IMG/VR virus record: IMGVR_UViG_3300021560_000021
Location: 1-54,837 of that record
Strand: one strand, 5' to 3'
DNA from: a virus
Lineage: Duplodnaviria; Caudoviricetes
Length of the DNA: 54,837 nucleotides
The notes beneath the pieces were generated by a model that saw only the letters and a list, made by a program, of their open reading frames with translations, was not told the origin of the DNA and did no database searches. Numbering within the stretch: position 1 is the stretch's first letter; each line of letters begins with the position of its first letter. Shown piece by piece: positions 1 to 18,522 of the stretch. The translations under genes and the position numbers were made by a program.

Positions 1-234
1 ACCGCCAATCGCGGATCAAAACCTCATTTCGCCCGCATGGATTATGAACGCGCGACGCTGAGCGTACGTGGCACATTGGACAAGCTGGCCATGGGGTACT
101 GGCGCATAACGGAGCGTGCGCCGTGCCCGTGCTGCGGTGCCAAATCTAACGGCAAGCTGCGACTGAACGGCATAGGCCGGGTACGGCTGGCGCGGCTTCG
201 CCACCGTGTAGAACAGCGAAAGAGAGGGACCTGA
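1..234 (+). CDS. Partial hypothetical protein with CPCC (possible Zn-binding) motif
   Basis: Frame is open from position 1; its stop overlaps the next ATG (TGATG). Confidence 0.6.
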   Translation, partial: TANRGSKPHFARMDYERATLSVRGTLDKLAMGYWRITERAPCPCCGAKSNGKLRLNGIGRVRLARLRHRVEQRKRGT

Positions 235-407
235 TGTACCACTTCTACGGCTTCGATCCCGACGACTATGACGCACTCTGCAAGATGCGCGAAACGCTGC
301 ACAACAAAACACGCGCTATGACGTTTGATGAACAGCGCGATTTTGCTGAGCGCATGCGCCTCTTGCTAGAGCGCGGCATCTTAATGGAAGGGGAAATGAG
401 AGAATGA
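234..407 (+). CDS. Hypothetical protein, 57 aa (MYHFYGFDPDDY...)
   Basis: Translated by hand; GAGAGGGA RBS; coupled to both neighbours by overlapping start/stop. Confidence 0.65.
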   Translation: MYHFYGFDPDDYDALCKMRETLHNKTRAMTFDEQRDFAERMRLLLERGILMEGEMRE

Positions 408-574
408 TGTTTGACGTGCCCGACGATCTGGTGCCCGTGGTTATCGAGGCATTAGAGCATCTGCAAGAAGACAACGAAGGCTGGATTGGCAGCCATAATC
501 GACAGGCGATCAAAGAAGACCCGAAGCTGCGGCGACTGCAACAGCTAATCGACCTGTTTAACCAGACATCGTGA
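404..574 (+). CDS. Hypothetical protein, 56 aa (MMFDVPDDLV...)
   Basis: Translated by hand; ATGA overlap with the upstream gene; fills the gap before 585. Confidence 0.65.
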   Translation: MMFDVPDDLVPVVIEALEHLQEDNEGWIGSHNRQAIKEDPKLRRLQQLIDLFNQTS

Positions 575-584
575 AAGGCAGAGC

Positions 585-1124
585 ATGGATAAAATGGCAA
601 AGGCAAAATGGGGTACCTGGAAAAGGTACAACGACCTATGGGAGATCGGCGCCGAAGCCGGTTGCTATAACGTTAACGGCACGCATTTCGATGCACCGCG
701 CGACCGCCGGGACTATCCGTACGCGCTGATTTGTCCAACCGGCTACTTCCTGATCAGCAATGCACGCGAGTTGCGCACGTCAGATATCCACATCGGTACG
801 TGGCGCGATGCGCAAGGCCGGGGCCGACTGACTGTACCTAGAGGCGGCATCGAAAACCTGCGCGGCTTCACCCGCAAGGTAAAGGCAAAGATCGCCAAGG
901 TGCAGCATAGCGGCCTGCCGCCAAAGGAAGTCGCTGATCAACTCGGCATCACGCCGATGACCCTGCACACATGGCGCAAAGGCTCGGACACCCGTGAGCC
1001 GCTACGCACTTTGACAACGCCACGGGGCGAGCGTCACACGGTACTGATCCCCGAGCAATCACTTACGGCGTGGCTGCGCAAGTACCGCCCGGACCTGCTT
1101 ACTGTGTGGCAGGCACGTGTATAA
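585..1124 (+). CDS. Protein with C-terminal helix-turn-helix DNA-binding domain
   Basis: PPKEVADQLGITPMTLHTWRKG is an excisionase/MerR-like HTH; GAAAGG RBS. Confidence 0.75.
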   Translation: MDKMAKAKWGTWKRYNDLWEIGAEAGCYNVNGTHFDAPRDRRDYPYALICPTGYFLISNARELRTSDIHIGTWRDAQGRGRLTVPRGGIENLRGFTRKVKAKIAKVQHSGLPPKEVADQLGITPMTLHTWRKGSDTREPLRTLTTPRGERHTVLIPEQSLTAWLRKYRPDLLTVWQARV

Positions 1125-1131
1125 CAAGCCA

Positions 1132-1163
1132 AGGTGCGGCGGTTCCTCCCGCCGCACCTATTT
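1132..1163 (+). terminator. Rho-independent terminator-like hairpin
   Basis: Perfect 11-bp stem AGGTGCGGCGG/CCGCCGCACCT, 6-nt loop, short ATTT tail, just after the stop at 1124. Confidence 0.7.
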
Positions 1164-1190
1164 GACTCTGATATGAACTGAGGGTAAATC
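1162..1190 (+). promoter_or_regulatory. Putative sigma70-type promoter
   Basis: TTGACT-17 bp-TAAATC, located right after a terminator and upstream of the 1243 gene. Confidence 0.55.
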
Positions 1191-1242
1191 CGTCAGTTCG
1201 TACCTGAGCCAATACCGGCTGAGGATCAAACGGAGACGAAAA

Positions 1243-1575
1243 GTGGCCAAGGACATGACTAAGACTGACGTTGTAATCCGGCTCGCCAAGCGGAAGCGCG
1301 GCGTGTCCGGTCCCGAGATCGTCGCGGCGACCGGCTGGCAGTGCGGCTCAACCAAGTGGCATATTGAGCACTACTGCCGCCGGTTTGATCTGGAGTACGA
1401 GCGCATTCCGACCGAGGGCCGCATCGTGCGGTACCGCATCCTGAGTGAAGCGGAAACCGCCGCGGTACGCGCCAAGAAGGCCAAGCCCAAGAAGATGCAC
1501 ACCGTCAGGGCGCACGTCGCGGTACACAAGGGCAAGCGCGTTGTCCGCCGTGCGTACGAGCGTGCCGCTGCCTGA
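1243..1575 (+). CDS. DUF3489-like winged-helix protein with basic C-terminal tail
   Basis: TKTDVVIRLAKRKRGVSGPEIVAATGWQ resembles the DUF3489 pattern (TK..VI.ML.RP.GAT..EI..ATGWQ); GGAG RBS. Confidence 0.7.
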   Translation: MAKDMTKTDVVIRLAKRKRGVSGPEIVAATGWQCGSTKWHIEHYCRRFDLEYERIPTEGRIVRYRILSEAETAAVRAKKAKPKKMHTVRAHVAVHKGKRVVRRAYERAAA

Positions 1576-1594
1576 TCACTGAAAGGACAAAACC

Positions 1595-2257
1595 ATGGCG
1601 CAAACCCCACGCGCACCACGGCGGAAGCGTCCCGCACCGATCGCCACAAATGGGAGCGCGCCGCCGACACCGGAGACGACACCGGAGACGACTGAGCCGA
1701 CACCGGTTGCGGAAGCTATCGCAGCCATGGCGGCACAGGATCAGAAGTCGGAAGACTTATGCTATGTGCGTATGCCACGCCTTGTACCGCGGGATGCCGC
1801 GTTGCAGTGGGCACACTACATGGCATTCCGATTTGCCACGAAGATCGACGTATGCAACCGCAAAGGCCAGTTGATTAAGTCATTCGACAACCGCGACATA
1901 ACGCTGGTCAAGCCGGAAGGTAGCATGCCACCGAATTGGCTGTGGCATCCTAGCTGGGATGCGCGGCCATGGGGGCGGCCAGGTACTGCATCTGAGCCTG
2001 ATCCCGACACCGCTGATCCCGCTCCGGCTACGGCGCCGAAGCGTAAGGCGTCACAAGGCCCCGGCCCCCGCAAAGACGATCCAAACGCGAAGTCGAGTCG
2101 GCTGGTGGCTTTGCTTAGCAGGGAGGGCGGCGCGACCCGTGCGGAGATGAAGGAGATCACCGAATGGGCCGTGCCGGTCACGTACATCGAGCGGCTGGCA
2201 AAGCTGCGCGACAAGAAGATGGAAAGTCTCGGAGATGATCGCTACCGCCTAGTCTGA
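1595..2257 (+). CDS. Hypothetical protein with C-terminal DUF3489-like winged helix
   Basis: KSSRLVALLSREGGATRAEMKEITEW...RYRLV; GAAAGGA RBS; Pro/Thr-rich linkers. Confidence 0.65.
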   Translation: MAQTPRAPRRKRPAPIATNGSAPPTPETTPETTEPTPVAEAIAAMAAQDQKSEDLCYVRMPRLVPRDAALQWAHYMAFRFATKIDVCNRKGQLIKSFDNRDITLVKPEGSMPPNWLWHPSWDARPWGRPGTASEPDPDTADPAPATAPKRKASQGPGPRKDDPNAKSSRLVALLSREGGATRAEMKEITEWAVPVTYIERLAKLRDKKMESLGDDRYRLV

Positions 2258-2287
2258 AATCCAAACCAAAATCCGAAAGGAAACACA

Positions 2288-3379
2288 ATGAGCATTCTTA
2301 CCCAAGCGTCGCACGAGTGGATGAAGCGGCCGAATGATCAGCGGTATCTGAACCTGCCGGACATGAAGGCGCACTTCGATCTGGAGCGCAAGTACTCCGC
2401 CGAAAAGGTGGTGCCCACATCGAAGGTCACCATCCTGCCGGTCAAGGGCGACAACACGGGCTTGGTCGTACAGGGACCGAAGGGCTTTGACTTCGCGCCG
2501 ACTCACTGGTCCTTCGGCCAGCTTGCCACGCTCGGCAAGGCGCCGGCCGGATATCTTCGTACCCTGCCGTCACCGATGGCCGCTGACTGTCTGAACTTTG
2601 GCTTGAAGATCGCACGTGACATTGAAGACGTGGGCTTGCTGCTGCACAAGAATGGCGGCACCCCAACGCTGCGCGCGGCGACCGGGCCGAAGTACGGGCG
2701 CATCTGGAATAACGACCTGCTTGACGAAGTGATCAAGCGGTTCGGCGACGGCGTGACCGGGGCATGGAAGATACCCGGCGAGTTCGGCAAGAAGGTGGCG
2801 ATCACCAAGGCCAACACGACGCTGTACGCGTCCGACCGCGATTTCTTCATCTTCCTTGCCGATGAAGAGAATCGCATCATCCTGCCCAACCGGCGCGACG
2901 GTAAGTCCGGCTCGCTGGCGCGCGGCTGGTTCATGTGGAATTCCGAAGTCGGCTCAACGACCTTCGGTATTTCGATGTTCCTGTTTGACTACGCGTGCAA
3001 GAATCGCATCGTGTGGGGCGTGACCGAAAAGGTGGACTTCCGCCTGCGTCACACCGTGTCGGCGCCGGACAAGTGGCTGGCGGAAATCCAGCCGGCGCTG
3101 ATCGCCTACCAAAACTCGTCGGGTAAGGGCGTGTTGCAGGCAATCGAGGATGCCCGCAAGGACCGGCTTGAAGACAGGTTGCAGAAGTTCCTTGCTGACC
3201 GGTTTTCCAAGGAACTGGTCAAGAGCATGACCGACGTGCACATGATCGAAGAGGGCCGCCCGATCGAAACGCGGTGGGATGCCGTGGTCGCTGCGACTGC
3301 GGTTGCACGCTCTATCGAGCATCAGGACGTGCGTGTGAAGTTGGAGCGCGAGGCCGGATCGCTGTTGAAGGCTTCGTAA
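2288..3379 (+). CDS. DUF932-family protein
   Basis: 363 aa; TLYASDRDFFIFL, RGWFMWNSEVGS, FDYACKNRIVWG and RLRHT motifs; GAAAGGA RBS. Confidence 0.85.
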   Translation: MSILTQASHEWMKRPNDQRYLNLPDMKAHFDLERKYSAEKVVPTSKVTILPVKGDNTGLVVQGPKGFDFAPTHWSFGQLATLGKAPAGYLRTLPSPMAADCLNFGLKIARDIEDVGLLLHKNGGTPTLRAATGPKYGRIWNNDLLDEVIKRFGDGVTGAWKIPGEFGKKVAITKANTTLYASDRDFFIFLADEENRIILPNRRDGKSGSLARGWFMWNSEVGSTTFGISMFLFDYACKNRIVWGVTEKVDFRLRHTVSAPDKWLAEIQPALIAYQNSSGKGVLQAIEDARKDRLEDRLQKFLADRFSKELVKSMTDVHMIEEGRPIETRWDAVVAATAVARSIEHQDVRVKLEREAGSLLKAS

Positions 3380-3380
3380 T

Positions 3381-3416
3381 CCTAACTGACTTAGGGGAGC
3401 GGATAACACCGCTCCC
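3381..3416 (+). other. Tandem 3'-UTR hairpins upstream of the ribozyme
   Basis: CCTAA/TTAGG (3381-3395) and GGGAGCGG/CCGCTCCC (3395-3416); no U-tract. Confidence 0.65.
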
Positions 3417-3475
3417 GCCGTAATGCAGCCAATGCCGGTCACAAGCCCGGATGCAAAATGCAGAGTGAGGCGGGA
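3413..3475 (+). ncRNA. Twister self-cleaving ribozyme, type P1; predicted cleavage U3421/A3422
   Basis: P1 UCCCGCC/GGCGGGA; L1 GUAA; P2 UGCA/UGCA; GC pseudoknot; P4 CCGG/CCGG; L4 UCACAAGC; conserved GA; pseudoknot UCAC/GUGA. The core closely follows the rice Osa-1-4 twister as recalled (GCCAAUGCCGGUCCCAAGCCCGGAU), with a compensatory change in the pseudoknot. Confidence 0.93.
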
Positions 3476-3565
3476 AGCCGTACGAGTGGAACCACACTCA
3501 ATCCGTGCTTGGGCACATAAGCGCACGGGCCATTTGGAAACAGGGCTTGTGGAAGGCTTCCCGCC
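3469..3565 (+). ncRNA. Putative multibranch structured RNA overlapping the twister P1 3' strand
   Basis: 11-bp closing stem GGCGGGAAGCC/GGCTTCCCGCC encloses hairpins at 3484-3499 and 3503-3528 and a weak GAAA-loop hairpin at 3529-3546; intergenic. Confidence 0.6.
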
Positions 3566-3591
3566 GTACCCTAAAGCACCGGAGACAATCA

Positions 3592-3795
3592 ATGATCATT
3601 GTTGTCGGCATCGTCGTGTTCGCGCTGATCGGCGCGGCATGCTCGGCCAGACGCGGCGCCGTTGCAGCGGAAGACTTACGCTATATCGCGCTGCATGGCC
3701 GTGACGCATTCCTGACTAAACAACGCAACGCGCGCAACCTAAGACTGATCGGCTGGCTGCTCTTTGCTGGCTTGCTGTGGCGCGCATTCATGTAG
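3592..3795 (+). CDS. Small membrane protein (two hydrophobic segments)
   Basis: MIIVVGIVVFALIGAACS and LIGWLLFAGLLW; GGAG RBS at 3581. Confidence 0.75.
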   Translation: MIIVVGIVVFALIGAACSARRGAVAAEDLRYIALHGRDAFLTKQRNARNLRLIGWLLFAGLLWRAFM

Positions 3796-3805
3796 GAGAC
3801 TAAAA

Positions 3806-4201
3806 ATGAAACACGCGCTGATCGCGACGATGACGTTGGCGCTTGCAGCATGTCAGCAACCACTAATCGTGCCCGAGTACACCGGCTATCAGGGCGGCGA
3901 CACGTGCCCGTATGCACAGTCAATGACGCCAGCCGATTACAACCAACAACTTTGCCAGCGATGGGAGAGTGATCGCGCCGCATACCAAGCGTCGCACGCC
4001 AATAATTCAGCCGCCTACATGGCGCGCATTCACGCCTATGAGATAGCGCATCCGGGGCAAGAAGCCGCCCCTGATCCAAAGCTGACCGCTGCACAGCGGG
4101 ACTACATCATCCGCCGCAACCTCGTTGAAATGTGCATGCGTCGCGGGCTTGCGGCGCCGGCACCGGATTGCAGCGAGTTCTGGTGGGCACCGTTACACTG
4201 A
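3806..4201 (+). CDS. Predicted lipoprotein
   Basis: MKHALIATMTLALAAC signal peptide with LAAC lipobox; AGGAG RBS. Confidence 0.8.
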   Translation: MKHALIATMTLALAACQQPLIVPEYTGYQGGDTCPYAQSMTPADYNQQLCQRWESDRAAYQASHANNSAAYMARIHAYEIAHPGQEAAPDPKLTAAQRDYIIRRNLVEMCMRRGLAAPAPDCSEFWWAPLH

Positions 4202-4212
4202 AAGGAAACCCC

Positions 4213-4461
4213 ATGGCAAAAACAAGCAAGCCGAGCCTGATCCTAAACATCGGTCCCGGCCACAACATCATCCACGACGCACGGTGCCATTTCATGACCT
4301 GTCATGAGCCGGCGCCACCGCCGATCCATCGCTATCCCGGTCATAGCGTGGGTCAGCTTGACAACATTCGGCGGCGTGAATGGCCAGACTATCCCCAACC
4401 GAGATTTTGCAAAGCGTGTTTGGCCAAATACGGCCACTCCGATCTGTGCAACCGCCACTGA
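4213..4461 (+). CDS. Hypothetical protein, possible Zn finger (H...C, CKAC)
   Basis: GAAAGGA RBS; IIHDARC and FCKAC motifs. Confidence 0.65.
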   Translation: MAKTSKPSLILNIGPGHNIIHDARCHFMTCHEPAPPPIHRYPGHSVGQLDNIRRREWPDYPQPRFCKACLAKYGHSDLCNRH

Positions 4462-4472
4462 AAGGGTATGAC

Positions 4473-4685
4473 ATGGCGACCAAGCAGTACGCGCATACGG
4501 CGGTTTACACGTGTGAGAGTAAGACAGTGTTGCACCGCTTCGTGCGGCAACTGATCAACAGCACCGCATGGTTTACCTGTACGCCACATGACTTCACGGT
4601 GGAAACCAGCGAAGTACGCGCCAACCATCGGATGAACCTGACCGGCATAACCATGACGATAAAGCCGACGCAGCGGCTACCCTGA
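4473..4685 (+). CDS. Hypothetical protein
   Basis: GAAAGGG RBS; fits operon packing. Confidence 0.65.
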   Translation: MATKQYAHTAVYTCESKTVLHRFVRQLINSTAWFTCTPHDFTVETSEVRANHRMNLTGITMTIKPTQRLP

Positions 4686-4697
4686 AAGCGAGGTACA

Positions 4698-5036
4698 ATG
4701 CCAGAGATCACCGACGAAGAATTGCATGCTGCCATGGCACGCGCCATAAAGCAAAATGCGCCACATGGCGGCTCACGCGTGATCGAGTACGGCGATGCGC
4801 GTGTGCTTGTACCAACCGAGCTTATCACCGAGGCGCTTAAAGGATTGCAGGCTGACGATAGCCTGCGCAAAGCGGCAATAGAGGTAGCAAACCTTCGGCT
4901 ACCGACAGCTATCAAAGTGCTGCTGAGCACGCCCGAGGGGGCGCCGAGCGCACTGGTACGCACGGTCACGCTGGACATCGTTATCTGGTTTGCCAACGAG
5001 ATCATCGAGGGCCGCGCGTCGCTGAGCATGAACTAA
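4698..5036 (+). CDS. Hypothetical protein
   Basis: GAGG RBS; 112-aa ORF in operon. Confidence 0.7.
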   Translation: MPEITDEELHAAMARAIKQNAPHGGSRVIEYGDARVLVPTELITEALKGLQADDSLRKAAIEVANLRLPTAIKVLLSTPEGAPSALVRTVTLDIVIWFANEIIEGRASLSMN

Positions 5037-5041
5037 CCGAC

Positions 5042-5070
5042 TTGACAAACCGAGGCCGGGTATGTATAGT
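5042..5070 (+). promoter_or_regulatory. Sigma70-type promoter
   Basis: TTGACA (5042-5047), 17-bp spacer, TATAGT (5065-5070); intergenic. Confidence 0.85.
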
Positions 5071-5082
5071 GCTCGGCCTTTT
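5053..5082 (+). terminator. Terminator-like hairpin overlapping the promoter -10 box
   Basis: AGGCCGGGTA/TGCTCGGCCT stem with two G-U pairs, followed by TTT. Confidence 0.55.
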
Positions 5083-5112
5083 CGATCAAACAAAACCGGC
5101 GGAGAAAAAGCA

Positions 5113-5718
5113 ATGTGGCTATTCCTTAGCAACGCCTTCCTGTCCATCGTCATTGACAAAACCGACCCGGACAAGCTGCTGGTCCGGGCACGTGCCGCTG
5201 GCGATATCCAACGGGTATTCGGCAAGCGTACAAAGGTCATACGCACGCCACGGGCCGACTATGGCTGGCGGGCATACGTAAGCCGGGATCGCGTCAAGCA
5301 GGCAATGGTCAAGGAAATCGACCAGATCACCTATCCCAACTTCAAGGACAGTGTACCGGAAGACGACCGGCACAACGCGTACGCACGGTGCTGGAATGCC
5401 TTGTATGATTTCCAGCGTCAGCGGCTTTATCCGCTGCCGAAGCGGCCGAAGCTGCACAACTGGCCACCGCAGTATAACATACTGAGCCTGCCATTTGCAG
5501 AGGAAGTCGTGGTAAGTGACTCGGTTGTACGGACAACGGAGACAACGACAACCAAGGTGCGCGTTGAACGGACACTTCCGACCGACTGCTTTTTCATCAG
5601 CAAGTCGGGTAGCACGGAAGTTGGTACGGCGGTGCGCACCGATGGCCCCATGACCCTCATTCAGGATCGTGACGGCAAAGAAGAGTGGTACGCATCGCAC
5701 GAGTGGGAGCCGCTATGA
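5113..5718 (+). CDS. Conserved phage hypothetical protein with C-terminal extension
   Basis: MWLF...FLSIV...LLVRAR...DI...DY..RA...YPNFK pattern recognised from many phage hypotheticals; GGAG RBS. Confidence 0.75.
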   Translation: MWLFLSNAFLSIVIDKTDPDKLLVRARAAGDIQRVFGKRTKVIRTPRADYGWRAYVSRDRVKQAMVKEIDQITYPNFKDSVPEDDRHNAYARCWNALYDFQRQRLYPLPKRPKLHNWPPQYNILSLPFAEEVVVSDSVVRTTETTTTKVRVERTLPTDCFFISKSGSTEVGTAVRTDGPMTLIQDRDGKEEWYASHEWEPL

Positions 5719-5722
5719 AGCG

Positions 5723-5753
5723 AAGGCCGCAGGGAAACCCTCTGCGGCCTTTT
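5723..5753 (+). terminator. Rho-independent terminator
   Basis: AAGGCCGCAG/CTGCGGCCTT stem followed by a T-rich tail. Confidence 0.8.
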
Positions 5754-5781
5754 GCTTTGTACAGACCATGAAAAGGAAACC

Positions 5782-6795
5782 ATGATGTCAGGACACCGCA
5801 CCATCCGAAATAACAAGATCGTCTTCGGCCACAACGTGTCTATGGCCGATATCCGACCGTGGAATATGACGGTGGCCAGCTTTCGCGATGCCGCGTTGGA
5901 GGAACGGGTATCGGCGTTGTACGTAACCGAGTGGAGCAACCAATTCATGCCCGATGCGGATACCGTACACAGTATCTCGCGGGCAGCCCATCGCGCCGTA
6001 AAGAGCGGCCAGTTGATTGACTTGGGCAACCTGCCCAACAACGTGATCAAAGAGGCTGGGCTGCGCGGCGGACCCTTGTACACACAAGGCGCCATCGGCC
6101 TGCCGTTCTCTGATCCGTGGGTCCTGTTTCACACATGGGAAGGCGGGCCGACTGCCTACGTTGTGCAGTTGGTCAAAGGCCAGCCGAATGGTGGCTGCAT
6201 CGAGATCGCCGAATTGATTGGCGTGGAAATCAAAGGACTCCGGCTGCTGATCGTCGGCGACCATCTGCACTACACGCCAACGCCGCAAGAGCCGGCACGG
6301 TACAACATCATCCCCATGCCATCCTATCTGCGCTGCATTGACTATGAAATGCAGAATGGTCCGTTGGACGTGACCGACAATCCAGAGCCGTTGATGGCTG
6401 GCGTCGGTCCCAACCTGTTGGACCCGCTCATGGCGGCACTGCTGATCATGAATACGGACGGCGTACCGAGTACGACAATCCGCGCAACCGACAAGCTGCA
6501 AAAGGCCAGGGCGAAGAATGGCAAGCCGATGATCCCGCCGTACCGCCAAGTCACCAGCGCAGGCTATGTGACCGCACTCGTGACGCGGCGCACTGAACAG
6601 CAGAACGGCAAACGTGGTACGCACGCGTCACCGGTCATGCATATCCGCCGTGGTCACAACCGGCATTACAAACGCTCCGGTGAGACGCGGTGGATCAAGG
6701 ACATGCTTATCAACGCCAACGAAGCGGCGCGCAATGACTTCATCGCCACGCGCACGCATTACAAAACAGGAGCGACGAATGAAACGCAAAATTAG
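5782..6795 (+). CDS. Phage hypothetical protein with C-terminal HxRRGH motif
   Basis: HASPVMHIRRGHNRHY...RWI; AAAGGA RBS. Confidence 0.75.
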   Translation: MMSGHRTIRNNKIVFGHNVSMADIRPWNMTVASFRDAALEERVSALYVTEWSNQFMPDADTVHSISRAAHRAVKSGQLIDLGNLPNNVIKEAGLRGGPLYTQGAIGLPFSDPWVLFHTWEGGPTAYVVQLVKGQPNGGCIEIAELIGVEIKGLRLLIVGDHLHYTPTPQEPARYNIIPMPSYLRCIDYEMQNGPLDVTDNPEPLMAGVGPNLLDPLMAALLIMNTDGVPSTTIRATDKLQKARAKNGKPMIPPYRQVTSAGYVTALVTRRTEQQNGKRGTHASPVMHIRRGHNRHYKRSGETRWIKDMLINANEAARNDFIATRTHYKTGATNETQN

Positions 6796-7954
6796 CAAGC
6801 GGAAGCAGGAAACACTCGAAACACGCACACGCGCACCGTTGCTGGTTGATCGGCTGCTGCATCAGGACCGCCGGGACAGCGAGCGATACGTACACCCGAA
6901 GGCACATGAACAAATGATGCGCTCTTTGCGGAGTTCGCATCGCTTCGTGTTTGACGATGAAGCCGCTGAGCGACTGGCCAAGGTGGTGATCGACATTCCG
7001 CAGCTTTTGGTACGCGAGCGGCAGTTTGCCCGAGCACCGTTTGACACAATCTGGATTGAGATTGCGTCACATCGGTACTGGGAAACCCTGCGCGAGCAAG
7101 CACCGGAAGCATACGACATGCAGGGCGAGTGGGGCGACCGCGAGAATGCTGATCACACGGTCGGCTACCTGATTGACCACAACCGCGTCAACACGATCGT
7201 CGGCGGCACCGTGGCGGACCCGCTGGGCAAAATCTATATCTCGCCGCTGCAATACCAAATTCATACCGAGTGGCCGCTACAGGACCAGATCAAATTTGCC
7301 GAAACCGCGCAAATGAGTCGGCTCGGTATAACCGCCTTCATGTGGGGAAGCTCGTTCGGCTTCCTTGGCAAGGATGATGTACACGACCTGCGCAATGAAA
7401 CCGTGCTGGAATTCCTGCCGCCTAATCCTGCGTACCCGGAGCAAGTCGGGTACCTCCGGCGGCCGGACGTGATTCAGTTGTCGATGCGCGGCGCGGTCGG
7501 CGACGTGCGCACCATCCACGCCTTGCTGTTGATGCTCAACCGACCGTCGATCACGCAATACCGACCGGTCAACACGTCGCGCGGCTGGTATCGGTCAAAG
7601 CCAATTCCGTACCTGTCGCACTCGGTTGTGCACGTTGATCTGGATGCCGTGAAAACCCTGCGCCACATTGGCACACCGGCTGAAAGCGGTATCACGCATC
7701 GTCGTCACGAAGTACGCGGGCACTTCTGCCACGATAAGACGGCACGCGACTACATGCGCATTGCCGGCTGCATCCATGAGTGGCGGGCGTGCGATGACGA
7801 ATGGGCGGTGATCGAAGGCAAGCCGAAGGACGAGCCTTCACGCTGGCACTGCGCGGCGTGCGGCGGCAAGCGGTGGTGGCGGGAAGCCCATGAGCGCGGC
7901 GACGCGTCCAAGGGCTACGTGATCAGGGATGGCTATGAGGTAACCGTGCTATGA
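6779..7954 (+). CDS. Phage hypothetical protein with HxVRGH motif and inserted Zn ribbon
   Basis: RRHEVRGHFCH...CIHEW...CAACGG...WWREAHERG; AGGAG RBS before ATG 6779. Confidence 0.75.
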   Translation: MKRKISKRKQETLETRTRAPLLVDRLLHQDRRDSERYVHPKAHEQMMRSLRSSHRFVFDDEAAERLAKVVIDIPQLLVRERQFARAPFDTIWIEIASHRYWETLREQAPEAYDMQGEWGDRENADHTVGYLIDHNRVNTIVGGTVADPLGKIYISPLQYQIHTEWPLQDQIKFAETAQMSRLGITAFMWGSSFGFLGKDDVHDLRNETVLEFLPPNPAYPEQVGYLRRPDVIQLSMRGAVGDVRTIHALLLMLNRPSITQYRPVNTSRGWYRSKPIPYLSHSVVHVDLDAVKTLRHIGTPAESGITHRRHEVRGHFCHDKTARDYMRIAGCIHEWRACDDEWAVIEGKPKDEPSRWHCAACGGKRWWREAHERGDASKGYVIRDGYEVTVL

Positions 7955-8127
7955 CACCGAGCGTCAGAAGCATCCTTACCGGCGGCACAGTCGGCTTGCT
8001 GCTTGCTGCCGTACAGATGGACATCATGTACGCCGTGTACGAGGAGTACATGCGCTGCGCCTTGGATGGACTGGTGACCTGCATCCTGTTCCGCCAGCAT
8101 TTCGCGCTGGCGGATCGCGGCTTATGA
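7951..8127 (+). CDS. Small hydrophobic protein, 58 aa
   Basis: Translated by hand; ATGA overlap; GAGG RBS. Confidence 0.6.
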   Translation: MTPSVRSILTGGTVGLLLAAVQMDIMYAVYEEYMRCALDGLVTCILFRQHFALADRGL

Positions 8128-8139
8128 AAGGGAGCACAC

Positions 8140-8328
8140 ATGACTATCAAATGGTCTGACATGCTGGATGATCTGGCACGTCGCAAGGTTGACCGACACC
8201 GGGAATTGCTGCGCGCTGGCGTACCTGCGGCCGACGCGGCAAAGCAAGCGCAGGATGAATTCAACATCGCACGTACGGCTGCGATCAAAGTCGCAACCGA
8301 ATGGCTGGTGCCGGGAGTACCGACATGA
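8140..8328 (+). CDS. Hypothetical protein
   Basis: AAGGGAG RBS; 62-aa ORF. Confidence 0.7.
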   Translation: MTIKWSDMLDDLARRKVDRHRELLRAGVPAADAAKQAQDEFNIARTAAIKVATEWLVPGVPT

Positions 8329-8471
8329 CGCATGATGAAGTGCTGCGCGACCTTGAAGCCCGCGCGCAAAAGCTGGCAGACGATCACGAGGTTGAGCAAG
8401 CGCGACGTTTGGCGCAAGCCCGCGACGTGAAGCCGACGTTGGCAGCGATTAAGCGGCTGACCGAAACATGA
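8325..8471 (+). CDS. Hypothetical protein, 48 aa, helical
   Basis: Translated by hand; ATGA overlaps at both ends; GGAG RBS. Confidence 0.6.
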   Translation: MTHDEVLRDLEARAQKLADDHEVEQARRLAQARDVKPTLAAIKRLTET

Positions 8472-9067
8472 CCCGCTATCCGCAGGCACGCGATTACGTC
8501 ACTGCCGGAAAGCTACCACGCGGCCGAGGCTGGAAAGACTATACGCTGAATGTCCTCACACTCGGCCGCGTGTCTATCCTTGAACAATACCCCACGCTGT
8601 TGATACCGATTGACGCCAACGAAAACCCTAATGAGCGGACGACCATGCTTCTGGTATCAACAGTGCCAGAAGCGGAAGCGCGCGCCGCCAACGTATTTGT
8701 AGATGGCGGCGGCGTGCTGGCGATCGAAATCGAGTCTATCGGTGCAGTGCCGATGGAAGTCAAATGGACGATTGACGACACCGATTACATAAGCCAACTG
8801 ACGCCGGTTACCGGCAAGCCGCGCATGTTGCATGCGGCAAATCCAGATGGCAGATTTGGCGGCAAGCCCCCCGACCTAATACGTCACCACCCCGGCTATA
8901 ACGCCTTGGCGCTGCCATCCTATCGTCCTGACGGGAAGGTATTTCATGTGCATCTGGTGGTACTCAATGAGAACGGCAGAAAGCTATCGCGTTGGGAGGC
9001 AGAGTTGAACATAAGGGCATATGACAAAAATCCGATACCTGACGCAAACCGGAGGATCAAACGATGA
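8468..9067 (+). CDS. Hypothetical protein
   Basis: 199-aa ORF translationally coupled on both sides. Confidence 0.7.
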   Translation: MTRYPQARDYVTAGKLPRGRGWKDYTLNVLTLGRVSILEQYPTLLIPIDANENPNERTTMLLVSTVPEAEARAANVFVDGGGVLAIEIESIGAVPMEVKWTIDDTDYISQLTPVTGKPRMLHAANPDGRFGGKPPDLIRHHPGYNALALPSYRPDGKVFHVHLVVLNENGRKLSRWEAELNIRAYDKNPIPDANRRIKR

Positions 9068-9633
9068 CTGAGAAAAATCCACTGACTGAACTGCTGCGGC
9101 CACACGTCGCAGCGTTGAAGGCCAGCGCCGCTATGGGCAATCAGGCAGCGCAACAGGTGATCGACCTGTACCAAATGCACATCGCCGCACGGCATGATCC
9201 CGGCGCACCGGCACTATGTGAGGCGGCATTCAAACAATGGCAGGAGACACAGAAGCCGGAGACACTGACCGAGCAACAGGCAATTCTTGATCTTGAGGAA
9301 GTCTATCGCGCCATCGTCAGCGGCAACTTCTATGAAGACTATGACGATGCCACCGCGCTATGCGGCAAGCTGCGCAAGGCGATCGACGCTCTGCGCGGTG
9401 TGTCTGACAAGAAGCCAGAAACCGTAGCCGAGAAGATCAAGGCACTGCGCGAGCAATCCGGTTACCCTATGATGGACTGCAAGGTAGCGTTGCATGAAGC
9501 CAAGGGAGACTTTGACGCTGCCTTGGCTGCATTGAATGCCATGCTACCGGCCGCTGCACTGCGCGATCCGATATCGCCGCACAAAGCCCTTGACCTGTTT
9601 ATGGGCCGCAAGAGCGAGGGAGAGGACACGTGA
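9064..9633 (+). CDS. Modular protein containing an EF-Ts N-terminal (UBA/TS-N)-like domain
   Basis: IKALREQSGYPMMDCKVALHEAKGDFDAALAAL matches the EF-Ts N-terminus pattern VKELRE.TGAGMMDCKKAL.E..GD...A...L; GGAGG RBS. Confidence 0.8.
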   Translation: MTEKNPLTELLRPHVAALKASAAMGNQAAQQVIDLYQMHIAARHDPGAPALCEAAFKQWQETQKPETLTEQQAILDLEEVYRAIVSGNFYEDYDDATALCGKLRKAIDALRGVSDKKPETVAEKIKALREQSGYPMMDCKVALHEAKGDFDAALAALNAMLPAAALRDPISPHKALDLFMGRKSEGEDT

Positions 9634-9938
9634 CACGCCGGCCATTGGTACAAGCTACCGCACCGCCTGATCGGAAGATCAGGCGGCGCCTGTTGCGGCC
9701 GGAGTTACCCGATGATGTCAGGGACGCGAAGCGGTGGCGGGCGTTGATGGCATGCCCCAACCTACGGATACAAACCACGACGCCGCAGCCATTCTCGCCG
9801 AAGGATCAGCCCGGCTACCGCTACATCGCACTGGACATCGCCACGCACGGTAACGGCAGCAATCACTTGAATTGGCACCTGTTGCGTGACTTCGTTGATC
9901 ACCTTGTCGCGCTACAGGACAACGATGCGGAGGGATGA
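9630..9938 (+). CDS. Hypothetical protein
   Basis: GTGA overlap; GAGGA RBS; contains the RDAKRWR motif common in small phage proteins. Confidence 0.7.
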   Translation: MTRRPLVQATAPPDRKIRRRLLRPELPDDVRDAKRWRALMACPNLRIQTTTPQPFSPKDQPGYRYIALDIATHGNGSNHLNWHLLRDFVDHLVALQDNDAEG

Positions 9939-9939
9939 A

Positions 9940-10182
9940 ATGCGCGACCTGTACACAAACCGAGATATCATGGATGCTATCCCGGTCATCACCGATCGCG
10001 AGGAAAACAAGTACACCGATATTCCCGGTTGGGAGGGCGAGTACACCGACTACACCGAAAAGGCTGTGCTGCTGCGCATGCCGAACACAACGATATGGTT
10101 TCCGTTCTCACAACTGCGCAAGGCGGAAGACGGTCAGTCCATCTATGCGTCAAACTGGATACTGGAACAGAAGGGAATATGA
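9940..10182 (+). CDS. Conserved small phage protein (TEKAVL...W.P.SQ...W...KG pattern)
   Basis: YTEKAVLL...IWFPFSQL...NWILEQKGI; GGAGG RBS. Confidence 0.75.
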   Translation: MRDLYTNRDIMDAIPVITDREENKYTDIPGWEGEYTDYTEKAVLLRMPNTTIWFPFSQLRKAEDGQSIYASNWILEQKGI

Positions 10183-10590
10183 ATGATCAAGCTACCGCAT
10201 TGGCTGACCGAGCCATACTGGCGTGTCCGCTGGTACTGGTGGATCACGGTACAGTCACCGACGCTGCCGACCACGTACAACATGGTGCACAAGGCCAAGA
10301 TCACGCAAGCCGATTACGATATCATGGCGGCGCGATGGGAGAAGCGCGAGCCGAAGCGTGGCGCACCGCCAAGCGTGGTACGGCACCGCCGTCGCCGCAA
10401 CATGACGTTTCCGAGGTATGCGCTGATCACCAATCCGCCGGACAGCACGTACAAATATGCCGTGTACGATGCGCACCGGACCAAAGGCAATCTGTACGTC
10501 TATCAGTCCGACGACATGGATACCTGCAAGGAAATGCGCAACGCCTGCAACGCAATGGAGGCTCTATATGAACGTAACCCCGGAAGCTAA
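10183..10590 (+). CDS. Hypothetical protein
   Basis: 135-aa ORF abutting the previous stop. Confidence 0.65.
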   Translation: MIKLPHWLTEPYWRVRWYWWITVQSPTLPTTYNMVHKAKITQADYDIMAARWEKREPKRGAPPSVVRHRRRRNMTFPRYALITNPPDSTYKYAVYDAHRTKGNLYVYQSDDMDTCKEMRNACNAMEALYERNPGS

Positions 10591-11227
10591 GGGTTGGGTA
10601 CGAACGGTGTTCAACGATATCCGCACACAGGAAAAAGCCTATCTAGATGCGATTGAGCGGGACATCATGCCACGACTACGCGCTCGCATGCGGATCAAAC
10701 GCTCGCTGCGACCCGAGCATGTCATCGAAGTCATGCGCGCGTTTCAAACGCTACGCCATCCGTACCGCCTGACGCTGGATACCACGTCACCGAGAAAAGG
10801 GCATGTCCTCGTGATCAATACCCTGCTTGGCGCCGCGTCCGAGTACTTCCGTCACTGGCGAACCGACCAATGGGAACACACCGTGTCGATTGACAGGATC
10901 ATAATCGGTACAACAGAAGGCCGGCTACGCATCAAAACCGAGTCGATCGCCGACGTGTCGTTGCATGCGTTGGCACGCTTCTATGAACGGGCGCGACGGC
11001 GCACGGTGCCGGACCTGCTGGCCAGCCTTAAAGTGGTGAGCCAAGCCGACCTTGAAGAAACCGAAACGCAATGCGAGCAAGGCGTCTGGATCGGCGGGCT
11101 GACCTATGTCACCGAAGATAAACAGCCGATATCGTACATTCGCAGCATCCGTACCTTCATCGGCGCCGATCAGCGCGAAGATCATCATCAATCGACCGGA
11201 TCAACCACGGTGCGATTGCCGGTCTGA
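10568..11227 (+). CDS. Hypothetical protein with HALARFYER motif
   Basis: GGAGG RBS before ATG 10568; last gene of the + arm. Confidence 0.7.
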   Translation: MNVTPEAKGWVRTVFNDIRTQEKAYLDAIERDIMPRLRARMRIKRSLRPEHVIEVMRAFQTLRHPYRLTLDTTSPRKGHVLVINTLLGAASEYFRHWRTDQWEHTVSIDRIIIGTTEGRLRIKTESIADVSLHALARFYERARRRTVPDLLASLKVVSQADLEETETQCEQGVWIGGLTYVTEDKQPISYIRSIRTFIGADQREDHHQSTGSTTVRLPV

Positions 11228-17031: not shown

Positions 17032-17403
17032 TCAGCCTTTCAGACTGTCGGGCACCTTCCCGCCGTTTTCTTCGAGCTTCTGCATGAGTGCCTTGTACAG
17101 AGCTTCGTTGCGTTCCGCTGATCCATCTGTACCAGCGGTGACGTTAAGTTCCTGCGCCAGCGTATGACGCGCTGCCGCACTGGAATCGAGGCCGAGCACG
17201 TGCAACAGATCAACGATGGATGTACGCCAGTTACCACCGCCGCCCTTCTGCGTTGCGAGGTTCTGCACGATCGCTTCCACGTCGATCACGGGCTTCGGTG
17301 CGGAAGGATCAGCCGGTGTGGCTGCCTGACCAGCAACCGCGGTACCTTCGGCGCTTTCCGTTGTACCGGTCAGCTTGTGCCAGATATCCGTCAACATGCT
17401 CAT
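17032..17403 (-). CDS. DUF3597-like protein, in frame with and nested in the 3' end of the GT9 ORF
   Basis: NWRTSIVDLLHVLGLDSSAAAR..LAQEL...KLEENGGKVP; own RBS AAGGAG 7 nt before ATG 17403. Confidence 0.75.
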   Translation of the reverse strand: MSMLTDIWHKLTGTTESAEGTAVAGQAATPADPSAPKPVIDVEAIVQNLATQKGGGGNWRTSIVDLLHVLGLDSSAAARHTLAQELNVTAGTDGSAERNEALYKALMQKLEENGGKVPDSLKG

Positions 17404-18522
17404 AGGCTCGCTCCTTGCTTGTACTGGTTGGCCTGTAAGCGCAGCCTGTGCGCACCGGACGATATGCTCGATCGGAATCGAGGAAATGCAGGCTGCGGCG
17501 TTCTTTTCCTTGTTCGGTGTGCAATAGGTAAAATCGCTGTGCAGCCGATGGCATGGATAGCAAGGCACCGTCGTTGTGTGCAGTGCGATGACGCGATGCC
17601 AGTACTTGACGATGTTCTCGGGCGATGCATGTGACAGGAGTACAACCTTGGGGATGTCCTCCATGGCAACGGCCCACATTGATCCGGTATCCGGCCCGAT
17701 CACCATGTCGCATTGCTGCAATAGCGCGAGCGAACGTCTGATCGGCCAAGACTTCACGTCGGCGTCGTCAACCGCAATGCTGCCGTCGTCCTTCACCGTC
17801 CACTTCGGCAAGGCGAATTGCAGACCAGTGGTTGATCCGTTGACGTGCTCCACGTGCTTGCGGATTTCTTCCGCCATGGACATTTCGCGCGTACTGGTCG
17901 GCGAGCCAAACAGCACAACCGGAATGCCAAGCTCGCGGATCAAATGAGCGATCGCCGCTGCGGAGTACGGATAGATTTTGTCGATGCGACTACCGGACAG
18001 GCACCAGCCGATCATGCGGTCGCCGATGATCGACTTGGTTTGCACCGCCTTGGCGCGTTCATCATTGGTCGGATAGAAGCGCGGATCAAACTCGTACGGC
18101 ACACCGCAGATATCGTGCAGGTACTCAAGGTAGTTTACGCCGCAATGTGCACGTCGCCATTCCGCCGGCCAGTAGAATTTCGTCTGACCGGGAAACAGCG
18201 CCAACTCGGTTTCGATCGAATGCGATAGATGGCGAAAGTAGGCGTACTCTGCACCACGCTTTTCAAACCAGCCCTGCCATTCTTCGGCCGAGGTAAATGG
18301 AATATCGCCTTGCTTCTTGATCGTCAGTTTGTCGATGTACGGATTGTTTTCAAACACGCATCCCTGCGGGTCCTGCGCAATGACTTCAACATGGTAGTCC
18401 TTGTGCAGATGCGGCAGGACGGACGATACGATGATGTTGTCGCCGATACCGCCCAAGCGTGCGATGCATGCCCACGGCTTCACAGTCGCAGCCATTCGAT
18501 CAATTCGGCGCCCGGCTGACAC
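17032..18522 (-). CDS. Glycosyltransferase family 9 (heptosyltransferase-like) protein
   Basis: RLGGIGDNI, VFENNPYID, IGPDTGSMWAV and PCYPCH motifs. Confidence 0.85.
   Translation of the reverse strand: MSAGRRIDRMAATVKPWACIARLGGIGDNIIVSSVLPHLHKDYHVEVIAQDPQGCVFENNPYIDKLTIKKQGDIPFTSAEEWQGWFEKRGAEYAYFRHLSHSIETELALFPGQTKFYWPAEWRRAHCGVNYLEYLHDICGVPYEFDPRFYPTNDERAKAVQTKSIIGDRMIGWCLSGSRIDKIYPYSAAAIAHLIRELGIPVVLFGSPTSTREMSMAEEIRKHVEHVNGSTTGLQFALPKWTVKDDGSIAVDDADVKSWPIRRSLALLQQCDMVIGPDTGSMWAVAMEDIPKVVLLSHASPENIVKYWHRVIALHTTTVPCYPCHRLHSDFTYCTPNKEKNAAACISSIPIEHIVRCAQAALTGQPVQARSEPMSMLTDIWHKLTGTTESAEGTAVAGQAATPADPSAPKPVIDVEAIVQNLATQKGGGGNWRTSIVDLLHVLGLDSSAAARHTLAQELNVTAGTDGSAERNEALYKALMQKLEENGGKVPDSLKG

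What the first reader, a model, noticed from the sequence alone, without database searches (positions are those of the whole stretch)
3413..3475. Twister ribozyme splitting a phage early operon
Seen: all twister elements are present (P1, U|AA, P2, both pseudoknots, P4, L4 AAGC, conserved GA), with covariation in the UCAC/GUGA pseudoknot. It sits about 40 nt after the DUF932 stop and upstream of a membrane protein and a lipoprotein gene. Known: twisters self-cleave to leave 2',3'-cyclic phosphate and 5'-OH ends, and their roles in phages are largely unknown. Inference: it processes the polycistronic early mRNA. The upstream hairpin 3395-3416 shares UCCC with P1 and could refold to release and protect the DUF932 mRNA end.
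Basis: partly seen in the sequence, partly recalled or inferred. Interest (0 to 1): 0.85.

Follow-up and report, generated by a model that had tools for sequence, protein, structure and literature searches.

The report
Twister ribozyme between phage genes
A real self-cutting twister RNA sits between two genes of a soil phage; it is an ordinary member of a known ribozyme class, followed by an unusual stretch that could compete with its own folding.

Summary
Window 3417-3471 (+) is the only Rfam match in the whole 54.8-kb phage contig: twister-P1, 46.5 bits, E 3.3e-7. That is below the curated cut-off of 67.2 because the optional P3 stem is absent. Every conserved nucleotide, P1, P2, P4 and both pseudoknots are present. 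A model built from 14 other P3-less phage twisters scores it 70.7 bits.

The upstream hairpin 3395-3416 looks like the class's optional P0 stem. A hairpin of at least 5 bp ends exactly at P1 in 37 of 52 phage type-P1 twisters, against 1-4 of 50-52 at control offsets.

The most likely function is cleavage of a polycistronic plus-strand mRNA at U3421|A3422. The upstream gene's RNA would then end in a hairpin plus a 5-nt tail with a cyclic phosphate. This role is inferred, not shown, and has already been proposed in print for phage ribozymes. Engineers use the same layout of stem-loop, twister and ribosome binding site.

It is a new member of a known kind. One thing is unusual. A 91-nt orphan structured domain (3472-3562) and the sequence just after it repeat the substrate strand. 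They can capture the ribozyme's P1/T1 3' strand, and this is the strongest such pairing among 51 phage twisters. No homologue was available to test it.

The parts
2288..3379 (+). Upstream gene, 363 aa (phrog_1362; only a weak DUF932 likeness)
   Evidence: ORF list. PHROG E 8.5e-43. Pfam DUF932 E 0.069, below the cut-off. Codon log-odds +0.60 per codon.
3395..3416 (+). P0 hairpin: 8 bp (3395-3402 with 3409-3416), loop AUAACA. It ends directly at P1 and has no U-tract after it.
   Evidence: Folds. Inverted repeat I3, 100% complementary. The same kind of abutting hairpin occurs in 37 of 52 phage type-P1 twisters, against 1-4 of 50-52 at control offsets.
3417..3471 (+). Twister ribozyme core, type P1, without P3 or P5. 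P1 3417-3419/3469-3471; P2 3424-3427/3459-3462; P4 3435-3438/3447-3450; T1 3440-3442/3465-3467; T2 3428-3429/3445-3446.
   Evidence: Rfam RF03160 46.5 bits, E 3.3e-7 over the whole window. Own model R1 70.7 bits, E 2.6e-20. Pair counts.
3421..3422 (+). Predicted scissile bond U3421|A3422
   Evidence: Aligned to the invariant UAA of the model. The U-A cleavage site is given in review PMC6154101. Not tested experimentally.
3472..3562 (+). Orphan structured non-coding domain. Closing stem 3472-3479/3555-3562 abuts P1. Hairpins at 3484-3499, 3505-3524 and 3525-3550.
   Evidence: Fold z-score -4.16, 0 of 200 shuffles. No Rfam match at E<=10. No relative in about 140 fetched loci. Non-coding by codon log-odds.
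3555..3572 (+). Competitor strand. It is complementary to 3462-3479 (P2 end, T1 3' strand, P1 3' strand and 8 more nt). It contains the second copy (3559-3568) of the 10-nt substrate strand 3413-3422.
   Evidence: Direct repeat D1 and inverted repeat I2. Duplex -24.8 kcal/mol, z -5.6, rank 1 of 51. Repeat length rank 1 of 51.
3581..3585 (+). Shine-Dalgarno-like GGAGA, 6 nt before the ATG at 3592
   Evidence: Sequence.
3592..3795 (+). Downstream gene 1: 67-aa protein with hydrophobic N- and C-terminal segments
   Evidence: Translation. Codon log-odds +0.18 and GC3 0.70, against -0.44 for the upstream extension of the same frame.
3806..4201 (+). Downstream gene 2: 131-aa protein with a lipoprotein-type signal (MKHALIATMTLALAAC)
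   Evidence: Translation. No family match.

Best explanation
Window 3395-3471 encodes a functional type-P1 twister self-cleaving ribozyme. It consists of the optional P0 hairpin, a short P1, P2, P4 and the two pseudoknots T1 and T2. It has no P3 or P5.

It is transcribed as part of a plus-strand polycistronic phage mRNA. It lies between the phrog_1362 (DUF932-like) gene and a small membrane-protein gene.

Once 3471 has been made, the RNA folds and cuts itself between U3421 and A3422.
- The upstream product ends in the GC-rich P0 hairpin followed by GCCGU with a 2',3'-cyclic phosphate. This is a terminator-like end that 3' exonucleases and poly(A) polymerase should handle poorly.
- The downstream product starts with a 5'-OH at A3422. 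It carries the folded ribozyme and a 91-nt structured leader ahead of the ribosome binding site at 3581.

The net effect is to uncouple the stability, and possibly the translation, of the two parts of the operon.

Shown here: the motif, its statistical and comparative support, and the layout.
Inferred: catalysis in this sequence, co-transcription of the flanking genes, and the stability effects.
For: Identity
- Full-length Rfam twister-P1 match, the only match in the window (46.5 bits, E 3.3e-7).
- 70.7 bits, E 2.6e-20 with model R1, built from 14 other P3-less phage twisters.
- The window carries the residue found in all 11 other P3-less phage twisters at each of the 26 invariant columns of alignment A1.
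- On A1, 97.1% of cells are paired and 9 of 17 pairs show changes on both sides. 0 of 500 shuffles reach this, and slid controls pair 17-42%.
- The T1 middle pair is Watson-Crick in 85 of 86 phage twisters.
- The isolated RNA folds into the expected nested helices.

Expected activity
- About 94% of more than 2600 natural twister candidates cleaved in vitro. Twisters without P3 or P5 are a recognised subgroup (PMC11662667, passages).
- P0, P3 and P5 are optional, in 21%, 78% and 1% of twisters (PMC6154101).

Layout
- Same strand as both neighbouring genes. No terminator-like or promoter-like site on the plus strand from 1 to 5041.
- The closest relative of the upstream gene (L002, 56% identity) has a classical hairpin plus U-tract terminator at this same position.

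Hairpin role
- A hairpin of at least 5 bp ends exactly at P1 in 37 of 52 phage type-P1 twisters, against 1-4 of 50-52 at offsets of 20-60 nt.
- The engineered pRAP cassette (stem-loop, twister, RBS) needed that stem-loop for expression of the upstream cistrons in E. coli (PMC9872166).
- Hatchet ribozymes carry a catalytically dispensable P0 upstream of P1 in 90% of cases (PMC10761166; PMC4604424).
Against: - The score is below Rfam's gathering threshold (46.5 against 67.2). However, all 13 twister-P1 matches in 7 other phage loci are below it too (47.3-64.6).
- 11 of the 14 training sequences of R1, and all 11 partners in A1, were picked because they share a 16-of-17-nt P4/L4 motif with the window. 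That part of the fit is circular.
- No RNA evidence exists, so cleavage, co-transcription and stability effects are untested.
- The ribozyme is not conserved with its upstream gene. No twister was found at E<=1 in 12 related loci. L003 and L124 appear to be one contig and L122 ends inside the gene, which leaves about 10 independent assessable loci.
- The full 221-nt region has an MFE of -86.4 kcal/mol that does not contain P1 or a free T1 strand. With the twister helices forced it is -78.0, pseudoknot energy not counted. Part of the transcripts might therefore never cleave.
- Here the start codon is 121 nt after P1. In 33 of 51 other phage twisters it is within 40 nt.
Confidence: 0.7

Rival explanations
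1. Gated ribozyme. The downstream strand 3555-3572 is a built-in competitor or pseudo-substrate. After it is transcribed, it captures the P1 3' strand and the T1 3' strand (3465-3479). Only the fraction of transcripts that cut within the first seconds is processed. Alternatively, after the cut it displaces the 5' product and makes cleavage irreversible. This adds to the best explanation rather than replacing it.
For: - The duplex of 3464-3478 with the following 150 nt is -24.8 kcal/mol, z -5.6, 0 of 200 shuffles. It is the strongest of 51 phage type-P1 twisters; the next are -19.1 and -16.2.
- The 10-nt exact repeat of the substrate strand is the longest of 51; the others are 8 nt or less.
- The complementarity runs 5 bp beyond the repeated part (AAGCC with GGCUU), so duplication alone does not explain it.
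- Growing-transcript folds show the twister as the MFE at 3472, and P1 and T1 lost from 3572 onward.
- A second complement exists, 3440-3460 with 3531-3551 (81% complementary, 5 of 500 shuffles).
- PMC11662667 notes that flanking sequence can alter twister reactivity and might be regulatory.
Against: - This rests on a single sequence. No homologue of the domain was found in the phage records, IMG/VR or the fetched loci, so there is no covariation test.
- The feature was noticed after looking at the fold.
- P1 is reported to be dispensable for cleavage (PMC6154101).
- Pseudoknot energies could not be computed, so the balance between the two states is unknown.
Confidence: 0.3
2. P1 is the 7-bp helix 3413-3419 with 3469-3475, which needs the outer half of the hairpin to open. 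After the cut the hairpin re-forms and releases and protects the upstream RNA.
For: - The 7-bp P1 with the inner 4 bp of the hairpin retained is only 1.3 kcal/mol less stable than P0 + 3-bp P1 (-31.7 against -33.0).
- Two other loci (L055, L109) also show a possible 7-bp P1 reaching into P0.
Against: - MFE and centroid folds keep the full hairpin and a 3-bp P1.
- In most phage twisters the hairpin simply abuts a 3-5-bp P1.
- GGGA 3472-3475 has a better partner in the closing stem of the downstream domain.
Confidence: 0.15
3. Two-site excision. After the first cut, the second copy of the substrate strand docks on the P1 3' strand and is cut at U3567|A3568. This releases a 146-nt RNA (3422-3567) with 5'-OH and cyclic-phosphate ends. 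It leaves the downstream mRNA with a 24-nt leader.
For: - The repeat includes the G-U-A of the cleavage site.
- The resulting leader, with the start 24 nt after the cut, would match the spacing of 40 nt or less seen in 33 of 51 other phage twisters.
Against: - The second site lacks the AA-P2 continuation that the twister core uses. No precedent for such a cut was seen in the papers read.
- The 10-nt identity is almost fully explained by both copies pairing with the same strand.
Confidence: 0.04
4. Inactive relic or chance look-alike with no function.
For: - The score is below Rfam's curated threshold.
- The element is absent from all relatives of the upstream gene.
- There is a G.A at the last P1 pair.
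Against: - E 3.3e-7 for the whole window, and no conserved position is altered.
- The T1 variant is the commonest Watson-Crick form.
- Twisters tolerate helix imperfections, and about 94% of natural candidates cleave (PMC11662667).
Confidence: 0.06

Closest known systems
Twister ribozyme, type P1 (Rfam RF03160, clan CL00120); basic form such as Oryza sativa Osa-1-4 (PDB 4OJI)
   Same: P1-P2-P4 with the T1 and T2 double pseudoknot, a U|AA cleavage site, L4 with AAGC, a conserved GAG after P2, and no P3 or P5.
   Different: It carries P0, which Osa-1-4 lacks according to PMC6154101. The last P1 pair is G.A. It scores below the Rfam cut-off. It lies in a soil phage contig.
Twister and hammerhead ribozymes near phage and prophage genes in bacteria (Roth 2014 and Weinberg 2015, as cited in PMC10085705; Perreault 2011, PMC3088659)
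   Same: Intergenic position, same strand as the flanking small genes, in a phage. The proposed role is to cut long phage transcripts into gene-length mRNAs.
   Different: There is a single copy here, whereas arrays of 2-3 occur in L034, L038, L061 and L009. The reported strongest association is with Mu-like phage genes. None of the 33 window proteins scanned matched a transposase or a family I would recognise as Mu-specific. Many ORFs were not scanned.
Engineered pRAP cassette: stem-loop, twister, RBS, ORF (PMC9872166)
   Same: A stable hairpin sits directly upstream of the twister cleavage site, so the upstream cistron ends in a stem-loop. The ribozyme stays on the 5' end of the next cistron.
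   Different: This one is natural. The RBS is 110 nt after the ribozyme rather than directly behind it, with a structured domain in between.
P0 hairpin of hatchet ribozymes
   Same: An accessory hairpin just 5' of P1 in a ribozyme that cuts at its 5' edge. It is dispensable for catalysis.
   Different: Different ribozyme class and fold.

Membership tests
Twister ribozyme (type P1) | Significant full-length covariance-model match | tested here: met
   RF03160 model positions 1-68 of 68, 46.5 bits. E 3.3e-7 for 54,837 nt x 2 strands x 4227 families, and it is the only match. Model R1 gives 70.7 bits, E 2.6e-20.
Twister ribozyme (type P1) | Rfam curated gathering score of 67.2 bits (an operational annotation cut-off, not a structural feature) | tested here: not met
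   46.5 bits, with nothing listed at gathering. The shortfall comes from the deleted optional P3 (alignment). All 13 twister-P1 matches in 7 other phage loci are also below it, at 47.3-64.6 bits.
Twister ribozyme (type P1) | Helices P1, P2 and P4 in the consensus order | tested here: met
   They appear in the MFE and centroid fold of 3390-3476. On A1, P2 and P4 cells are 100% paired and P1 cells 89.6%, with changes on both sides in all 4 P1 pairs and all 4 P2 pairs.
Twister ribozyme (type P1) | Double pseudoknot: T1 (L4 with the 3' side of the P1-P2 loop) and T2 (L4 with the junction after P2) | tested here: met
   CAC 3440-3442 with GUG 3465-3467, and GC 3428-3429 with GC 3445-3446. T1 cells are 97.2% paired and T2 cells 100% on A1. 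The T1 middle pair covaries, Watson-Crick in 85 of 86.
Twister ribozyme (type P1) | Highly conserved nucleotides (UAA at the cut, GCC after P2, L4 ..CAAGC, GAG after P2) | tested here: met
   All upper-case consensus positions of the Rfam alignment are matched except the covarying T1 C-to-A and G-to-U. At each of the 26 invariant columns of A1 the window has the residue shared by the 11 other sequences.
Twister ribozyme (type P1) | Mg2+-dependent self-cleavage at the U-A step, giving 2',3'-cyclic phosphate and 5'-OH ends | not testable with these tools
   No RNA data. The prior is about 94% activity among natural candidates in vitro (PMC11662667).
Twister ribozyme (type P1) | Optional stems P0, P3 and P5 | tested here: met
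   P0 is present (3395-3416). P3 and P5 are absent, which the class allows: P0 21%, P3 78%, P5 1% (PMC6154101). That P0 lies 5' of P1 in twister is recalled, not seen in a call. For hatchet it is stated.

The most novel reading that the evidence does not exclude
The twister is the front half of a larger natural RNA device. The 91-nt domain behind it ends in a second copy of the substrate strand. That copy competes for the ribozyme's P1 and T1 strand. This would be a built-in pseudo-substrate that sets what fraction of the operon mRNA is cut, or that drives product release. In its boldest form it is a second cut site that excises a 146-nt RNA with ends that can be ligated. A natural flank-gated twister has not turned up in the papers I could search.
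Probability: 0.25. Interest if true: 0.6.

Novelty: new member of a known kind. Interest (0 to 1): 0.35.

Why it matters
On its own this is one more twister in a phage, in the genetic setting where this class is already known to cluster. Three things give it some value.

First, it is invisible to annotation at Rfam's gathering score. So were all 13 other phage twisters scored here. Phage ribozyme counts based on that cut-off are therefore too low.

Second, the comparison set shows a layout of hairpin, twister and ribosome binding site as the rule in phage type-P1 twisters. Engineers found this same layout necessary. That gives a concrete, testable reason for the long-unexplained link between these ribozymes and phage operons.

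Third, the competitor strand downstream would be a natural example of a twister controlled by its flank, if it proves functional.

Tried and rejected
Relatives and homologues
- I looked for homologues carrying the same intergenic region. blastn of 2200-4800 against phage records found only the upstream gene, at 68-76% identity.
- Loci related to the upstream protein in IMG/VR (2 loci) and in metagenomes (10 loci) contain no twister at E<=1. Prokaryote genomes gave none.
- The lipoprotein gene has no relative in IMG/VR.
- An exact 18-nt pattern from the ribozyme's 3' side gave 0 hits.
- A 17-nt pattern from the P0/P1/P2 side gave 18 loci of a different, P3-bearing twister group. I did not analyse these further.
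- blastn-short of 3472-3591 against the window and all fetched loci gave only chance 12-14-mers.

RNA evidence
- No RNA holder was listed by the look-up of sequencing runs. The only run is one soil-metagenome DNA run, which may be the source sample.

Other readings considered and dropped
- A second ribozyme or known RNA in 3472-3591: no Rfam match at E<=10 and no tRNA.
- A twister on the minus strand: none.
- A coding reading of the spacer: ORF 3423-3704, its GTG 3486 start, and the GTG 3505 extension all score negative by codon log-odds.
- A target-site-duplication or mobile-cassette reading of the 10-nt repeat: no other phage twister in the set of 51 has such a repeat. The repeat is explained by shared pairing with one strand.
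- Local alignment of the ribozyme against the downstream region in direct orientation is not significant (137 of 500 shuffles). A partial tandem duplication therefore remains possible but unsupported.

Rows dropped or imperfect
- A1 used 12 of the 13 'linker 4' rows. L077 was dropped as a near-duplicate of L063.
- The sets of 52 and 51 come from a strict regular expression that kept 55 of 129 motif matches. They still contain at least two probably mis-parsed permuted forms (L006, L086).
- 42 of 128 matches stayed unclassed. Some are twisters with a P2 mismatch or cut by a contig end, and others are chance matches in coding DNA.
- Shuffles were mononucleotide shuffles.

Papers
- Only passages found by term search were read, for PMC6765202, PMC8782182, PMC5502269, PMC10085705, PMC6154101, PMC9872166, PMC3088659, PMC4604424, PMC10761166 and PMC11662667.
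- Felletti et al. (PMC5785228) is not held. Its content is known to me only through the review passages and recall.
- Roth et al. 2014 was not read.
- Supplementary files were not opened. Supplements of the twister surveys may already list this kind of phage twister or P0 statistics.
Full report
WHAT IS THERE

The window is one IMG/VR virus record of 54,837 b, rated 63% complete. One soil-metagenome DNA run holds it. Between the stop of a 363-aa gene (2288-3379) and the next credible start (ATG 3592) lie 212 non-coding bases.

Read directly from the sequence:
- Hairpin 3395-3402 with 3409-3416.
- P1 3417-3419 with 3469-3471, followed by G3420.A3468.
- U3421|A3422 A3423.
- P2 3424-3427 with 3459-3462.
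- G3428 C3429 pairing with G3445 C3446 (T2).
- A 5-nt linker (CCAAU) where P3 would be.
- P4 3435-3438 with 3447-3450.
- Loop UCACAAGC.
- CAC 3440-3442 pairing with GUG 3465-3467 (T1).
- G3463 A3464 after P2.

IS IT MORE THAN CHANCE?

At Rfam's gathering scores nothing is reported for the window. With E-value reporting, twister-P1 (RF03160) matches 3417-3471 over the whole model at 46.5 bits. E is 2e-9 in a 321-nt search and 3.3e-7 for the whole window on both strands against all 4227 families. It is the only match at E<=1.

The printed alignment shows that the shortfall against the 67.2-bit cut-off comes from deletion of the P3 hairpin. P3 is optional, present in 78% of twisters according to PMC6154101 (passage). 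All 13 twister-P1 matches in seven other phage loci also fall below the cut-off, at 47.3-64.6 bits. A sub-threshold score is therefore normal for this material.

The 87 nt from 3390 to 3476 fold, in both MFE and centroid, into exactly hairpin + P1 + P2 + P4. The four pseudoknot strands are left unpaired.

COMPARATIVE SUPPORT

- Of 128 matches in L004-L120, a strict regular expression classed 51 as type-P1 twisters and 35 as permuted twisters with P1 closed by a loop. It left 42 unclassed.
- The free base pairs with its T1 partner in 85 of 86 (A-U 50, C-G 28, G-C 6, U-A 1, one A.C).

An alignment of the window with 11 other P3-less twisters (A1) gives 97.1% of cells paired for the 17 pairs of P1, P2, P4, T1 and T2. 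Nine pairs change on both sides. 0 of 500 shuffles are as good, and only 17-42% pair when partners are slid.

Model R1 was built from 14 P3-less phage twisters without the window. Three of the 14 have other P4 sequences. R1 scores 3417-3471 at 70.7 bits, E 2.6e-20. The next match in the window is noise at 9.7 bits.

Caveat: most comparison sequences were chosen because they share the P4/L4 motif with the window. P4, L4 and T2 therefore say nothing independent. The independent information lies in P1, P2, the T1 middle pair and the loop nucleotides.

THE HAIRPIN

Among the 52 unique type-P1 twisters of the sample (window included), a helix of at least 5 bp ends exactly on the base before a 4-bp P1 in 37. 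At control offsets of 20-60 nt upstream this happens in 1-4 of 50-52 (gap 0 in 39, gap 1 or less in 44).

The hairpin sequences differ widely, so structure is what is kept. This fits the optional 'P0' stem of the class (PMC6154101). Its position 5' of P1 in twister is my recollection of the original description. For hatchet ribozymes, a P0 upstream of P1 that is present in 90% and dispensable for cleavage is stated.

It is much better than a melted P0 (-25.9).

After the cut, the upstream RNA would end in P0 plus GCCGU with a cyclic phosphate. The permuted phage twisters leave the P1 hairpin itself at the new 3' end (sequences). Both architectures therefore produce a hairpin-terminated upstream fragment.

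Engineers arrived at the same design. In the pRAP system a stem-loop placed before a twister was needed for expression of all but the last cistron (PMC9872166, passages).

That such ends resist 3' exonucleases and polyadenylation, and that 5'-OH ends are poor RNase E substrates, is established knowledge that I recall. No call shows it.

CONTEXT

The plus-strand block 1-11,227 holds small genes. They include an HTH protein, one with a weak DUF3489 likeness, the phrog_1362 protein, and many without family.

The minus-strand block holds structural genes: major head protein, DUF3383, baseplate J, tail-fibre domains and large glycoside-hydrolase-bearing proteins. 'Early operon' is thus a reasonable guess, not a result.

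On the plus strand no terminator-like or promoter-like site was found between 1 and 5041. The first are a promoter-like site at 5042-5070 and a strong terminator-like hairpin at 5722-5752. Read-through across the ribozyme is therefore plausible.

The Pfam DUF932 match of the upstream protein is weak (E 0.069). A DNA-level relative in Synechococcus virus S-ESS1 is annotated DUF932.

The ribozyme is not inherited with this gene. No twister was found in 12 related loci, of which about 10 are independent and assessable. The closest viral relative, L002, has a textbook intrinsic terminator at the same spot. The hairpin-plus-ribozyme here occupies the place of a terminator. It would give a defined, protected 3' end without stopping transcription.

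WHAT IS UNUSUAL

In 33 of 51 other phage type-P1 twisters, a Shine-Dalgarno-like motif and the start of an ORF of at least 40 codons follow within 40 nt of P1. Here the start is 121 nt away, and the space is filled by a 91-nt domain (3472-3562). An 8-bp closing stem abuts P1 and encloses three hairpins (z -4.16, 0 of 200 shuffles).

The domain has no Rfam match and no relative in any fetched locus. It is non-coding by codon usage.

Its 3' side repeats the substrate strand exactly: 10 nt at 3413-3422 and again at 3559-3568. It extends the complementarity by five more pairs. The strand 3465-3479 (T1 3' strand, P1 3' strand and 8 more nt) can therefore pair either inside the ribozyme or with 3555-3569.
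- That duplex is -24.8 kcal/mol, z -5.6. It is the strongest of 51; the next are -19.1 and -16.2.
- The repeat is the longest of 51.
- The unconstrained MFE of 3380-3600 uses this alternative (-86.4). With the twister helices forced the energy is -78.0, before any pseudoknot or tertiary energy. The two states may be close.
- A further complement, 3440-3460 with 3531-3551, exists.

Without a homologue I cannot tell a selected switch from a by-product of a partial duplication. I record it as unexplained and as the novel case.

MECHANISM AND RIVALS

Best reading (0.7): an active twister that segments a polycistronic phage mRNA, with P0 as the protective end of the upstream piece.

Additive rival (0.3): cleavage is gated, or product release is driven, by the downstream competitor.

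The prior for activity is high. About 94% of more than 2600 natural candidates cleaved in vitro, and P3-less forms are a recognised subgroup (PMC11662667).

WHAT IS KNOWN

Twisters and hammerheads cluster near phage genes, most strongly Mu-like ones, and near each other. The reason is called unknown (PMC10085705). Processing of polycistronic transcripts into pieces of different stability has been suggested for both (PMC6765202; PMC3088659).

My searches found no paper that describes a natural twister gated by its flank. They also found none that counts P0 in phage twisters. The key primary papers and all supplements were out of reach, so I make no claim that these are not in print.

VERDICT

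This is a new member of a known kind, with one unexplained feature worth a bench test. Interest 0.35.

Noticed in passing
L004-L120 (IMG/VR loci): Twisters are very common in IMG/VR phage contigs. 86 of 128 matches were classed as twisters (51 type P1, 35 permuted). Several contigs carry arrays: three in L034, three in L038, two in L061, two in L009.
   Followed up: partly
L009, L014, L034, L038, L049, L061, L074: All 13 Rfam twister-P1 matches in these phage loci score below the family's gathering score (47.3-64.6 against 67.2 bits). Standard Rfam annotation would miss them.
   Followed up: partly
52 unique type-P1 twisters from L004-L120 plus the window: There is a recurrent layout of GC-rich hairpin abutting P1, then twister, then Shine-Dalgarno motif and start within 40 nt. 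The hairpin is present in 37 of 52 and the start in 33 of 51. The permuted forms instead leave the P1 hairpin at the new 3' end. The layout mirrors the engineered pRAP cassette.
   Followed up: partly
window 3423-3425: The conserved UAAUGCA places an AUG one base after the cleavage site, so the 3' product begins A-AUG. The 93-codon ORF it opens (3423-3704) looks non-coding by codon usage.
   Followed up: yes
L002 4120-4150: The closest viral relative of the upstream gene has a classical intrinsic terminator (GC hairpin plus U-tract) where the window has hairpin plus twister.
   Followed up: yes
window 5042-5752: A near-consensus sigma-70-like promoter (11 of 12, 5042-5070) and a 13-bp terminator-like hairpin (5722-5752) bracket the single gene 5062-5718. 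This may be an autonomous unit inside the plus-strand block.
   Followed up: no
window 17032-18522, 24255-32294, 32487-35345 (minus strand): The structural module encodes three notable proteins: a 2679-aa protein with a GH16 domain, a 952-aa protein with four fn3 repeats and a GH5 cellulase domain, and a 496-aa protein with glycosyltransferase-9 and DUF3597 domains. This is an unusual carbohydrate-active set for a tailed phage.
   Followed up: no
L121 4808-4923 (minus strand): Weak match to the Rfam Phage_DGR RNA (30.7 bits, E 0.11, below the cut-off) in a metagenome relative.
   Followed up: no
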